A stretch of 32,000 nucleotides of DNA from a virus. Location: positions 327,683 through 359,682 of IMG/VR virus record IMGVR_UViG_3300017971_000185. The stretch is one strand, 5' to 3'. The notes beneath the pieces were generated by a model, which was not told the DNA's origin, did no database searches, and saw only the letters and a list, made by a program, of their open reading frames with translations. Shown in pieces: positions 21,731-22,083 of the stretch (position 1 is its first letter; every line of letters begins with the position of its first letter). Made by a program: the position numbers and the translations under genes.

Positions 21731-21874
21731 GATCAACGCCAACAGATCAATCTCACAAGCATTGTTGGTTCGATTCCAACCCCCGCCACTCATGGCGGGG
21801 TAGCCAAATGGTAAAGGCACCGGTACAAGGAACCGGCGTGAAAACGCAATCAGGTTTTTCACTCGGCGTTGATC
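21731..21874 (+). ncRNA. circularly permuted tRNA-like module B (YrlA-like Y RNA candidate)
   Basis: Helix GATCAACGCC (21731-40) / GGCGTTGATC (21865-74); T arm 21764-80; CCCCGCC-A-CTCAT-GGCGGGG (21781-21800); D arm GCC-AAATGGTAAA-GGC; two further hairpins. Confidence 0.65.
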
Positions 21875-21930
21875 AACTTTCCCTTCTCGGGTGCGGCTCT
21901 CGCGAGCCCCCGATTTTCACCCCAACAGTA

Positions 21931-22083
21931 TTGGTCAATGCCAACAGATCAACCTCACAAGCATCATGTTGGTTCGAGTCCAACCTCCCCCACCCATGGG
22001 GGAGTAGCCTAACTGGAAAAGGCACCAGACGTGTAAATCTGGCGTGTAAACGCAATCAAGGTTTCTCACTCGGCGTTGACCAA
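21931..22083 (+). ncRNA. circularly permuted tRNA-like module C (YrlA-like Y RNA candidate)
   Basis: Helix TTGGTCAATGCC (21931-42) / GGCGTTGACCAA (22072-83); T arm 21968-84; CTCCCCC-A-CCCAT-GGGGGAG (21985-22004); D arm GCC-TAACTGGAAAA-GGC; stems covary with module B. Confidence 0.65.

What the first reader, a model, noticed from the sequence alone, without database searches (positions are those of the whole stretch)
21731..22083. Two tandem circularly permuted tRNA-like modules with covarying stems (YrlA-like architecture)
Both modules have the same order: closing-helix 5' strand, ssRNA with CTCACAAGCA, T arm (GTTGG-TTCGATT-CCAAC or GTTGG-TTCGAGT-CCAAC), acceptor 3' strand, N plus a 5-nt loop ending CAT, acceptor 5' strand, TA, D arm with GG-containing loop, two extra hairpins (the second has the conserved loop CGCAATCA(A)GG), and closing-helix 3' strand. 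The acceptor strands differ at several positions but stay complementary (CCCCGCC/GGCGGGG versus CTCCCCC/GGGGGAG). The closing helix covaries too (GATCAACGCC/GGCGTTGATC versus GGTCAATGCC/GGCGTTGACC). The closing helix GGUCAA/UUGACC resembles the GGUC(C)GA/UUGACU Ro-binding helix of metazoan Y RNAs as I remember it. The 5' acceptor strand follows the 3' strand, so these cannot be ordinary tRNA genes.
Basis: partly seen in the sequence, partly recalled or inferred. Interest (0 to 1): 0.85.

Follow-up and report, generated by a model that had tools for sequence, protein, structure and literature searches.

The report
Phage Y-RNA-like permuted tRNA mimics
Two neighbouring genes in a huge phage encode RNAs shaped like transfer RNA but wired in a rotated order and mounted on a conserved helical "handle"; they belong to a large, unannotated RNA family that sits beside a gene whose predicted fold resembles the RNA-surveillance protein Ro60.

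Summary
Window 21731-21874 and 21931-22083 are two paralogous, circularly permuted tRNA-like RNAs (T arm, closed 7-bp acceptor hairpin, D arm, anticodon-like arm), each closed by a 5'/3' helix.

I found more than 50 distinct homologues in huge-phage contigs. Covariation is strong: 91% of cells are paired against 61% in shuffles, and 35 of 37 pairs change on both sides.

No Rfam family reaches its threshold. YrlA matches only the T-acceptor-D core, at 28 and 23 bits against a cutoff of 69.

The constant part is a helical arm: P1, a 4x4 internal loop with ACUC, P2, and then CUCACAAGCA. This arm leaves the tRNA-like body at the variable-arm position, not the anticodon-stem position used in YrlA.

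The same arm also does three other things in this window. It encloses two tRNA-like genes in normal order, it is inserted as a closed hairpin into two others, and it carries a differently permuted one at 15220-15367.

The RNAs lie downstream of a conserved operon. Its first gene (16173-18065) has only Ro60/TROVE structures as full-length fold matches (TM 0.46-0.49), but no sequence-level TROVE signal.

Best reading: a new variant of Y-RNA-like tRNA mimics.

The parts
21731..21874 (+). Module 1, a permuted tRNA-like RNA (topology b). Order: P1a 21731-40; internal loop AACA; P2a 21745-53; CUCACAAGCA 21752-61; T arm 21764-80; acceptor hairpin 21781-21800 (loop ACUCAU); D arm 21803-18; A26; anticodon-like arm 21820-36 (loop ACAAGGA); GNRA hairpin 21837-46; P2b 21852-60; ACUC 21861-64; P1b 21865-74.
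   Evidence: CM R1 scores it 145.5 bits. Covariation.
21931..22083 (+). Module 2, a paralogue of module 1 (topology b). Order: P1a 21931-42; P2a 21951-55; CUCACAAGCA 21954-63; T arm 21968-84; acceptor hairpin 21985-22004 (loop ACCCAU); D arm 22007-23; anticodon-like arm 22025-42 with an 8-nt loop CGUGUAAA; GNRA hairpin 22043-52; P2b 22059-63; ACUC 22068-71; P1b 22072-83.
   Evidence: CM R1 scores it 140.9 bits. Orthologues with the same 8-nt loop type occur in L018/L046, L035 and L042/L050.
21889..21918 (+). GC-rich hairpin followed by AUUUUC, lying between the two modules. It may be a terminator or a 3'-protective stem. Homologues carry a comparable strong hairpin after the module.
   Evidence: The consensus terminator scan did not call it.
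16173..18065 (+). 630-aa protein with an N-terminal beta region, a helical-repeat domain and a C-terminal VWA domain. It is Ro60-like by predicted fold only and is the candidate protein partner.
   Evidence: Pfam finds VWA only. AF2 model pLDDT 77. Foldseek full-length hits are 9kop, 1yvp and 9l5y (Ro60/TROVE), E 1e-7 to 1e-5, TM 0.46-0.49. BFVD hits include TROVE and DUF2828 proteins. There is no sequence-level signal.
18073..21047 (+). Rest of the conserved operon upstream of the RNAs: a 309-aa protein of unknown fold (18073-19002), HNH (18999-19571), JAB (19568-19954), an 85-aa ORF (19944-20201) and a ThiF-like E1 (20394-21047).
   Evidence: The order Ro-like, p309, JAB, ThiF, arm RNAs is kept in 14 or more loci.
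21164..21292 (+). Topology c. A tRNA-like gene in normal order (acceptor GCCGGAC/GTCCGGC) with the same arm inserted at the variable-arm position. Here P1 is closed by a loop, and ACUC and CCACAAGCA are present.
21294..21421 (+). Topology a. The arm (P1 GAAGCAACC/GGTTGCTTC) encloses the RNA that ARAGORN calls tRNA-Ala(CGC) at 21321-21394. CUCACACGCA runs into the acceptor 5' strand.
21463..21592 (+). Topology c, second copy. The acceptor is GGCGGAC/GTCCGCC, a compensatory change relative to 21164-21292. The anticodon loop is CUUACAC.
21593..21722 (+). Topology a, second copy. The arm (P1 GAAGCGACC/GGTCGCTTC) encloses the RNA called tRNA-Met(CAU) at 21621-21693.
15220..15367 (+). Topology d. 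Order: 14-bp P1; internal loop UCUC/ACUC; P2; GUCACAAGCA; anticodon-like hairpin (CAU); T arm; acceptor hairpin (CCCCGCU-UUCAU-GGCGGGG); degenerate D arm. It lies 0.8 kb upstream of the Ro60-like gene.
   Evidence: z -3.9. Orthologues are L047 7433-7577 and L050 2770-2915.

Best explanation
**What is shown.** The two modules are paralogous genes for structured non-coding RNAs of about 145-155 nt.
- Each has a tRNA-shaped body: a canonical T loop, a D loop with GG, a 7-bp acceptor stem closed by a 6-nt loop, and a 5-bp anticodon-like arm.
- The 5' and 3' ends of each RNA form a conserved rod: P1, a 4x4 internal loop whose 3' side is ACUC, P2, and a second junction made of CUCACAAGCA.
- The rod leaves the body where a tRNA has its variable arm.
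- The family is widespread in huge phages and is maintained by selection on base pairing.
- The rod is a shared handle. It also carries tRNA-like bodies in other rotations, and small hairpin cargos.

**What is inferred.**
- The RNAs work like Y RNAs. The rod would be the docking site for a common protein, most parsimoniously the Ro60-like ring-plus-VWA protein encoded at the head of the same conserved gene block.
- The tRNA-shaped body would then be the effector module. It would recruit or occupy enzymes that recognise the tRNA elbow or acceptor (RNase P, CCA-adding enzyme, modification or repair enzymes, nucleases). This would tie a Ro-type RNA surveillance or repair particle to the phage's very large tRNA set.
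- As with Mycobacterium smegmatis YrlA, the 7-bp acceptor hairpin may be opened by RNase P and given a CCA end, leaving a nicked two-piece RNA held together by the rod.

Neither the protein binding nor the processing has been shown.
For: **Structure and covariation.** Folds have z-scores of -5.35 and -4.44. The covariance model finds 20 full-length members in the first set of loci and 50 more hits in 35 of 65 Ro-like loci, all on the gene's strand.
- 89.6% and 91.2% of cells are paired, against 61% in shuffles and 32-47% in slid controls.
- 34 of 37 and 35 of 37 pairs change on both sides.
- Both P1 and P2 covary.

**Conserved sequence.** CACAAGCA, the T-arm core, the D-loop G and CUC are invariant across the 12 seed sequences.

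**YrlA-type core.** Rfam RF02553 aligns model positions 29-81 (T arm, acceptor stem-loop, D arm) to both modules.

**Self-contained units.** Many homologous loci carry a single module. Several close the acceptor with UUCG or GCAA tetraloops.

**Shared handle.** The same arm surrounds normal-order tRNA-like cargo, other permutations and small hairpins. This matches the way YrlA and YrlB share a Ro site (PMC4201824).

**Protein partner.** The only full-length PDB fold matches of the 630-aa protein are Ro60/TROVE, including a phage Ro60 that binds phage Y-like RNAs (PMC12135203). The gene ends 3.7 kb upstream on the same strand.

**Linkage.** The arm RNAs start 30-300 nt after the last gene of that block in 14 or more phages that share only 50-60% protein identity. 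In L022 and L025 a module also lies just upstream of the Ro-like gene.

**Processing precedent.** M. smegmatis YrlA (7-bp acceptor stem) is cut by RNase P and receives CCA (PMC4201824). In this family, N-CCA follows the acceptor 3' strand in 18 of 52 members.
Against: **The Ro60 assignment rests on a predicted fold only.** TM scores stay below 0.5.
- Pfam finds no TROVE domain.
- A profile search of PDB sequences finds only VWA matches.
- hhalign against vertebrate Ro60 aligns only the VWA domain, at 3.9% probability.
- Distant relatives give no bridge to TROVE.

**The Ro-binding sequence features are missing.** There is no GNCGAA motif on the 5' strand. The nearest thing is CUCG(R) on the 3' strand, and CGAA appears only in some members. 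The YrlA model scores far below its cutoff in the window and does not reach it in 17 homologous loci.

**The synteny is not independent evidence.** It comes from related phages. The block also encodes ThiF, JAB and a small ORF, none of which has a known link to Ro.

**A processing role is also plausible.** The arm also brackets RNAs that score as ordinary tRNAs (53.8 and 39.9 bits), and N-CCA is enriched in the acceptor loop. Both fit a processing or maturation role at least as well.

There are no expression, end-mapping or binding data.
Confidence: 0.5

Rival explanations
1. These are genuine permuted (split) tRNA genes. RNase P and 3' trimming or CCA addition open the acceptor loop. The rod holds the two pieces together, or its ends are ligated. 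The product is a working, aminoacylatable tRNA with a giant variable arm, equivalent to the normal-order genes at 21164-21292 and 21463-21592.
For: - Acceptor stems are 7 bp.
- N-CCA follows the 3' strand in 18 of 52 members, against 7 of 24 ordinary tRNAs in the window.
- Anticodon loops are canonical (Y32-U33-NNN-R37) in 14 of 32 members with 7-nt loops.
- The normal-order and permuted versions are exact circular permutations of one architecture.
- The phage also encodes EF-Tu and Thg1.
Against: - Both window modules have non-canonical loops: C33 in ACAAGGA and the 8-nt CGUGUAAA.
- About nine homologues close the acceptor with 2-5-nt loops or stable tetraloops, leaving no room for a discriminator plus CCA.
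- The strict conservation of ACUC and CACAAGCA has no role in decoding.
- There is no bulge-helix-bulge motif, and no splicing endonuclease or RNA ligase was found among the window ORFs I scanned.
Confidence: 0.15
2. The arm is a processing stem, analogous to the stems that bracket rRNAs. It would be recognised by RNase III or a phage endonuclease during maturation of the polycistronic tRNA transcript. The permuted bodies would be by-products, or decoys that soak up host tRNA-targeting nucleases.
For: - The arm brackets RNAs that score as tRNAs.
- Arms are arranged head to tail inside a tRNA array.
- Anticodon-like loops vary freely, as expected for decoys.
Against: - In topology c the arm is a closed hairpin inside the RNA, so it is not a leader-trailer duplex.
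- Loop sequences ACUC and CACAAGCA are conserved while the helices vary. That points to specific recognition of the mature fold, not a generic double-stranded RNA site.
- Only a handful of the window's 27 tRNAs have the arm.
Confidence: 0.15
3. The partner of the arm is not the Ro-like protein but the adjacent ThiF/JAB/small-ORF system or the 309-aa protein. One example would be an E1-type enzyme acting on the tRNA-like RNAs.
For: - The arm RNAs begin 30-300 nt after the ThiF-like gene in 14 or more loci.
- From general knowledge, some ThiF-family enzymes act in tRNA thiolation or on tRNA directly.
Against: - The ThiF match is generic, and no tRNA-specific family is hit.
- The 309-aa protein has no significant fold match.
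- Nothing ties these proteins to RNA.
Confidence: 0.1
4. These are non-functional debris from recombination between tandem tRNA genes. Under this reading the T arm belongs to one gene, the D arm belongs to the next, and the hairpin arises only because neighbouring copies had the same acceptor.
For: - Dimeric tRNAs are a known source of false YrlA hits, and the proposed evolutionary origin of YrlA (PMC4201824; bioRxiv 10.1101/312249).
- The region is repetitive.
Against: - Compensatory changes occur in every helix across 47 distinct sequences.
- Single self-contained modules occur in many loci.
- Reading module 1's 5' half together with module 2's 3' half gives a C-C mismatch and leaves orphan halves.
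Confidence: 0.02

Closest known systems
YrlA, the bacterial and phage Y-RNA-like tRNA mimic (Rfam RF02553; Chen et al. 2014, PMC4201824; Wang et al. 2018, bioRxiv 10.1101/312249)
   Same: - It has a tRNA-like L-shaped core written in the order T arm, closed acceptor-like stem-loop, UA, D arm.
- Its 5' and 3' ends pair into a long stem.
- It is encoded near, and on the same strand as, a Ro60-type gene.
- Several related RNAs sit side by side.
- It is also known in phages.
   Different: - Here the terminal stem leaves from the variable-arm position and an intact 5-bp anticodon-like hairpin is kept. In YrlA the terminal stem is the anticodon stem.
- The conserved motifs differ: ACUC and CUCACAAGCA here, against the 5' GNCGAAN0-1G of YrlA.
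- The Rfam score is 23-28 bits against a cutoff of 69.
- The neighbouring protein has no detectable TROVE sequence signature.
Mycobacterium smegmatis YrlA (PMC4201824)
   Same: It has a 7-bp acceptor stem-loop and is about 147 nt long. It is cut by RNase P and then receives CCA, which gives two halves that stay bound. This fits the N-CCA seen in many acceptor loops of the present family.
   Different: Processing is untested here. The window's two loops read ACUCAU and ACCCAU, not NCCA.
Yrl1 and Yrl2 of Thermus phage phiLo with phage Ro60 (PMC12135203; PDB 9KOP, 9L5Y)
   Same: These are phage-encoded Y-like RNAs beside a phage Ro60. They have a stem, internal loop, stem layout. 9KOP and 9L5Y are among the best fold matches of the window's 630-aa protein.
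   Different: The phiLo RNAs were identified by a CGAA motif in a large internal bulge and are not described as full permuted cloverleaves. The phiLo protein was identified and described as a Ro60 homolog.
Circularly permuted tRNA genes of Cyanidioschyzon merolae and other algae, and of Thermofilum (from general knowledge; mentioned in PMC3400036 and PMC4238349)
   Same: The 3' half precedes the 5' half. The acceptor strands are joined by an intervening sequence, and the gene's termini pair.
   Different: In those genes the termini form a bulge-helix-bulge motif, which is cut and ligated into a circle. The products are ordinary tRNAs. Here there is no such motif, the terminal arm is conserved in sequence, and the anticodon loops are often non-canonical.
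Two-piece (permuted) tmRNA
   Same: The gene is permuted, so that the T arm and acceptor 3' strand precede the acceptor 5' strand.
   Different: These modules have no tag reading frame, no G3-U70 pair and a true D arm. ARAGORN finds no tmRNA.

Membership tests
YrlA (RF02553) | T arm, closed acceptor-like stem-loop, UA, D arm in this 5'-to-3' order, with tRNA-type T-loop and D-loop nucleotides | tested here: met
   The helices covary.
YrlA (RF02553) | Reaches the Rfam gathering score of 69 bits | tested here: not met
   The two modules score 28.1 and 22.8 bits, over model positions 29-81 of 114 only. No YrlA hit reaches the cutoff in 17 homologous loci.
YrlA (RF02553) | GNCGAAN0-1G motif near the 5' end (the putative Ro60 site) | tested here: not met
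   The 5' strands read GAUCAACGCCAACAG and GGUCAAUGCCAACAG. The conserved motif is ACUCG(R) on the 3' strand, and CGAA occurs only in a subset.
YrlA (RF02553) | The 5'/3' stem continues the anticodon stem, so there is no separate anticodon hairpin | tested here: not met
   One nucleotide (A26) after the D arm there is a separate 5-bp hairpin, found in 43 of 52 members. The terminal arm lies between that hairpin and the T arm. The YrlA topology is taken from bioRxiv 10.1101/312249.
YrlA (RF02553) | Encoded within 4 kb of a Ro60/TROVE gene and on the same strand | tested here: inconclusive
   A Ro60-like fold protein ends 3.7 kb upstream on the same strand. 35 of 65 loci with this protein carry a module within 10 kb, and all 50 hits are on its strand. 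TROVE is not detectable by sequence.
YrlA (RF02553) | Bound by Ro60/Rsr and modified by TruB and DusA | not testable with these tools
   This needs immunoprecipitation and modification mapping.
Metazoan-type Y RNA (RF00019) | Conserved bulged Ro-binding helix GGUCCGA/UUGACU in the terminal stem | tested here: not met
   There is no Y_RNA match at E<=10. P1 has no bulge, and its sequence is not conserved: 10 of 10 pairs change on both sides.
Permuted tRNA genes (C. merolae type) | The 3' half lies upstream of the 5' half, with the acceptor strands joined by an intervening sequence | tested here: met
Permuted tRNA genes (C. merolae type) | A bulge-helix-bulge motif formed by the gene's termini | tested here: not met
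   The termini form P1, a symmetric 4x4 loop and P2. There are no 3-nt bulges separated by 4 bp.
Permuted tRNA genes (C. merolae type) | A canonical 7-nt anticodon loop (U33, purine 37) that gives a decoding tRNA | tested here: not met
   The window loops are ACAAGGA (C33) and the 8-nt CGUGUAAA. Among homologues, 14 of 32 7-nt loops are canonical.
tRNA (RF00005) | A contiguous cloverleaf that reaches the 29-bit cutoff or is called by ARAGORN | tested here: not met
   Scores are 27.2 and 18.2 bits, using spurious closing pairs. ARAGORN makes no call.
Two-piece tmRNA | An alanine-identity acceptor (G3-U70), a tag reading frame and no true D stem | tested here: not met
   Position 3 forms C-G in module 1 and G-C in module 2. 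A D stem is present. ARAGORN reports no tmRNA.

The most novel reading that the evidence does not exclude
The conserved arm is a universal handle. The tRNA-shaped cargos, found in four different circular rotations, are real tRNAs.

[quoted passage not shown] The result is a two-piece (or re-ligated) chargeable tRNA with a giant variable arm. These would be the first permuted or split tRNA genes in bacterial viruses.

They might be built this way so that a phage Ro-like particle can hold, check or repair them, or so that host anticodon nucleases cannot recognise them.
Probability: 0.15. Interest if true: 0.9.

Novelty: new variant of a known kind. Interest (0 to 1): 0.72.

Why it matters
Y RNAs and Ro60 are old puzzles, and in bacteria the partner of the tRNA-like module is still unknown.

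- **A natural comparison series.** This family has more than 50 members. One conserved handle carries tRNA-shaped bodies in several rotations, and also small hairpins. That shows which part is constant (the arm) and which part is exchangeable.
- **A new protein branch.** The family points to a very divergent Ro-like protein that sequence methods miss. This may widen the known reach of Ro-type particles in viruses.
- **Annotation.** Two RNAs that gene callers label tRNA-Ala and tRNA-Met here may not be ordinary tRNAs. The family is unannotated in Rfam 15 and in a public phage record (KX853510.1).
- **If the acceptor loops are processed.** The RNAs would then be two-piece tRNA-like molecules, which bears on how tRNA genes can be split and permuted.

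Tried and rejected
**DNA similarity.** Searches of the region against 50,697 phage records, in both near and distant modes, found nothing.

**Sequence tests for Ro60.** All were negative.
- Pfam TROVE on the 630-aa protein at E<=10.
- phmmer and a profile search against PDB sequences.
- hhalign against a vertebrate Ro60 alignment: only the VWA domain aligned, at 3.9% probability.
- A profile search of 1.84 billion representatives, followed by a Pfam scan of the most distant full-length hits: no TROVE or DUF2828.
- NCBIfam and PHROGs: nothing informative beyond a generic ThiF match.

**The 309-aa neighbour.** Its AF2 model (pLDDT 82) has no significant PDB fold match. Only weak OB-like hits appeared, at E>0.4.

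**Promoter and terminator scan of 20900-22500.** Nothing was found on the + strand. A TTGACA at 21048 is only a visual lead.

**Alternative readings I rejected.**
- *tmRNA.* ARAGORN finds none.
- *A normal-order gene made of module 1's 5' half plus module 2's 3' half.* This gives a C-C mismatch in the acceptor and leaves two orphan halves. Many phages also have a single module.
- *T-loop pairing with ACUC.* T loops vary while ACUC does not.

**Genome-collection scan.** Only 3 of the 80 loci I tested were real members. All three are MAG contigs and are probably phage.

**Literature.** I found no description of this family in the library.
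Full report
**1. The observation**

There are two units of about 150 nt that are 85% identical. Each unit has the following order:
- a 5' strand of a closing helix;
- a single-stranded stretch with CUCACAAGCA;
- a canonical T arm;
- a 7-nt acceptor 3' strand, a 6-nt loop and the complementary acceptor 5' strand;
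- UA;
- a D arm with GG in its loop;
- one A;
- a 5-bp hairpin;
- the 3' strand of the closing helix.

RNAfold recovers this layout. The z-scores are -5.35 and -4.44. ARAGORN tRNAs in the window but nothing here. The Rfam tRNA model stays below its cutoff. Among roughly 40 T-arm-like sites in the window, only three are followed by a complementary acceptor strand a few bases downstream.

**2. Homologues and structure**

The region has no nucleotide match among 50,697 phage records. A pattern scan of IMG/VR (CACAAGCA, 2-8 nt, GGTTCRANTCC) returned 45 loci, many of them from contigs of 280-620 kb. Reading and folding these loci showed the same architecture with very different helix sequences.

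I built a covariance model from 12 sequences.
- It finds 20 full-length members at 58-145 bits in the first set of loci.
- It finds 50 more in loci fetched through a neighbouring protein.

On the 47 distinct sequences of the second set:
- 91.2% of cells form pairs, against 61.4% in shuffles and 35-47% when partners are slid;
- 35 of 37 pairs show changes on both sides;
- P1 (10 of 10 pairs), all seven P2 pairs, the T stem (4 of 5), the acceptor hairpin (7 of 7) and the D stem (2 of 3) covary.

These alignments were fitted to the model, so the counts lean towards it. A model-free script gives independent support for the acceptor hairpin (complementary strands in nearly all 52 unique members) and for a 5-bp anticodon-like stem (43 of 52).

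Homologues support helix P2 (AAYCU with AGGUU in the window) plus, in the window's close relatives, a small GNRA-capped hairpin.

**3. The consensus**

The consensus RNA runs, from 5' to 3':
- P1a (7-12 bp);
- a 4-nt loop;
- P2a;
- C(U)CACAAGCA;
- 3-5 nt;
- the T arm;
- the acceptor 3' strand, a loop and the acceptor 5' strand;
- UA;
- the D arm;
- A;
- the anticodon-like arm;
- a junction containing GC(A)A;
- P2b;
- ACUC;
- P1b, which begins with G.

CACAAGCA, the T-arm core, a D-loop G and CUC are invariant in the seed alignment. The GC of CACAAGCA can pair with the GC of the 3' junction, but this pair never varies and so cannot be tested.

The terminal arm leaves the body between the anticodon-like arm and the T arm, which is the variable-arm position.

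**4. The arm is shared**

A descriptor scan for the arm alone, together with folding, shows the same arm with other cargos.

| Topology | Window coordinates | What the arm does |
|---|---|---|
| a | 21294-21421 and 21593-21722 | Brackets the RNAs called tRNA-Ala(CGC) and tRNA-Met(CAU). The GCA of the motif forms the first acceptor pairs. In some homologues this stem is only 3-6 bp long. |
| b | 21731-21874 and 21931-22083 | The two modules of the finding. |
| c | 21164-21292 and 21463-21592 | tRNA-like genes in normal order. The arm is closed by a loop and inserted at the variable-arm position. The two copies differ by a compensatory change in the acceptor. |
| d | 15220-15367 | The cargo begins with an anticodon-like hairpin and ends with a degenerate D arm. 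Orthologues occur in two other phages. |

Some phages also have arms that carry only one or two small hairpins. The arm is therefore the constant element, and the tRNA-shaped body is exchangeable and can be rotated.

**5. Acceptor and anticodon features**

Among 52 unique permuted members:
- the acceptor loop begins N-CCA in 18, compared with 7 of 24 ordinary tRNAs in the window;
- about eleven members have an extra hairpin in the loop;
- about nine close the stem with loops of 2-5 nt, including UUCG and GCAA;
- anticodon-like loops are canonical in 14 of the 32 loops that are 7 nt long.

The window's own loops are ACAAGGA and the 8-nt CGUGUAAA. The 8-nt type is conserved in three related phages.

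So the family mixes features of closed tRNA mimics with features that suggest tRNA-type end processing.

**6. Genomic context**

The window carries 27 tRNAs, EF-Tu, a Thg1-like enzyme, an IS607-type pair and an SRP RNA.

Upstream of the RNA cluster lies a block of genes: a 630-aa VWA protein, a 309-aa protein, HNH, JAB, an 85-aa ORF and a ThiF-like E1.

*The 630-aa protein.* It has more than 1800 homologues at 60-86% identity in huge-phage contigs. Its AF2 model (pLDDT 77) consists of a beta region, a helical-repeat domain and a VWA domain.
- In the PDB, the only matches that span the whole protein are Ro60/TROVE structures: 9kop, 1yvp, 9l5y, 1yvr and 2i91. They cover 547-589 aligned columns at E 1e-7 to 1e-5 and TM 0.40-0.49 (normalised by target). 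All other matches cover only the VWA domain.
- Viral predicted structures give the same picture and include a TROVE protein and DUF2828 proteins.
- No sequence method detects TROVE.

*Synteny.* tblastn shows the order Ro-like, p309, JAB, ThiF, arm RNAs in 14 or more loci. The RNAs start 30-300 nt after ThiF. In L022 and L025 a module also lies just upstream of the Ro-like gene.

*A public record.* The one GenBank phage with this protein is Virus Rctr197k (KX853510.1). It has an unannotated module at record positions 175488-175636.

*Cellular genomes.* I tested the first 80 loci returned by the genome-collection scan, and only three MAG contigs carry real members.

**7. Comparison with known families**

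*YrlA.* It is defined by five features (PMC4201824; bioRxiv 10.1101/312249):
- a 5' GNCGAAN0-1G motif;
- a variable stem-loop;
- a T arm, a closed acceptor-like stem and a D arm;
- a terminal stem that continues the anticodon stem;
- proximity to rsr.

The present RNAs share the core order and, tentatively, the proximity criterion. They fail on the motif, the topology and the Rfam score.

*Metazoan Y RNA.* The metazoan Y RNA helix is not present.

*Permuted tRNA genes.* Those of algae share the gene order but use bulge-helix-bulge termini, which these RNAs lack.

*tmRNA.* It is excluded.

[quoted passage not shown] The phiLo study shows that a phage Ro60 binds phage Y-like RNAs (PMC12135203).

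**8. Verdict**

The modules are real, selected, circularly permuted tRNA mimics. They belong to an undescribed huge-phage family that is built on a conserved arm.

The most likely mechanism is Y-RNA-like: the arm docks a common protein, most plausibly the Ro60-like one, and the body engages tRNA-recognising factors. This is an inference, and I give it about 0.5.

The rivals remain open. They are true permuted tRNAs, a processing stem or decoy, and a different protein partner.

I rate the finding a new variant of a known kind.

Noticed in passing
window 22085-22177 (+): A bacterial small SRP (4.5S-type) RNA starts two bases after module 2. It scores 57.7 bits against a cutoff of 40 (Rfam RF00169). 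No SRP RNA was found in the corresponding 22-kb loci of six related phages, nor in the 11 loci.
   Followed up: partly
window 21321-21394 and 21621-21693 (+): The RNAs called tRNA-Ala(CGC) and tRNA-Met(CAU) have weak acceptor stems: an A-C mismatch and a mismatched 1-72 pair. They are enclosed by the same conserved arm, so they may not be ordinary tRNAs. Their homologues often carry A34 anticodons (AUC, AUG, AAC, ACG) and acceptor stems of only 3-6 bp.
   Followed up: partly
window 21164-21292 and 21463-21592 (+): Two tRNA-like genes in normal order that ARAGORN and Rfam both miss. Each has a structured insertion of about 60 nt (the closed arm) at the variable-arm position. Together with the following arm-enclosed tRNA-like gene they form a 300-nt tandem repeat.
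   Followed up: yes
window 15220-15367 (+): A further arm RNA with a different rotation of the tRNA-like body: anticodon-like hairpin, T arm, acceptor hairpin, degenerate D arm. It lies 0.8 kb upstream of the Ro60-like gene. Orthologues occur in L047 and L050.
   Followed up: yes
window 21048-21153 (+): TTGACA lies directly after the ThiF stop codon. It is followed by a possible arm with almost no cargo (CUUCC...CUCACAAGCU...CUCUC GGAAG). The fold is not significant (z -1.1).
   Followed up: partly
window 8244-8329 (+): An uncalled class-II-like tRNA. Its acceptor is GCUCGAA/UUCGAGC, its anticodon loop is UUCAGGU (CAG, Leu) and it has a long variable arm. Its D region is odd.
   Followed up: partly
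window 6987-8216 (+) and 31024-31824 (+): The phage encodes an EF-Tu with all three domains (E 4e-60 for the GTP-binding domain) and a Thg1-like tRNA-His guanylyltransferase. The listed EF-Tu ORF overlaps tRNA-Tyr at 6929-7014, so the real start codon is probably further downstream.
   Followed up: no
window 1033-1779 (+) and 2500-3927 (+): A serine recombinase with a MerR-type HTH, followed by a TnpB/Cas12f-like protein. This is an IS607-type element inside the phage.
   Followed up: no
window 19568-21047 (+): JAB, an 85-aa ORF ending ...PFGS, and a ThiF-like E1 form a ubiquitin-like-system trio that is conserved next to the Ro-like gene and the arm RNAs. There is a weak NCBIfam hit to the PRTRC-system ThiF.
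   Followed up: partly
L008 2958-3395 (-): A GOLLD RNA (194.9 bits) lies in a 283-kb phage contig that also carries a divergent permuted module at 9251-9397.
   Followed up: no
L111 19530-19678 = KX853510.1 175488-175636 (-): The public record of Virus Rctr197k has an unannotated permuted module (68.6 bits) between a hypothetical gene that follows the ThiF-like gene and a tRNA-Met. Its Ro-like gene is annotated only as a misc_feature, 'similar to conserved hypothetical protein'.
   Followed up: yes
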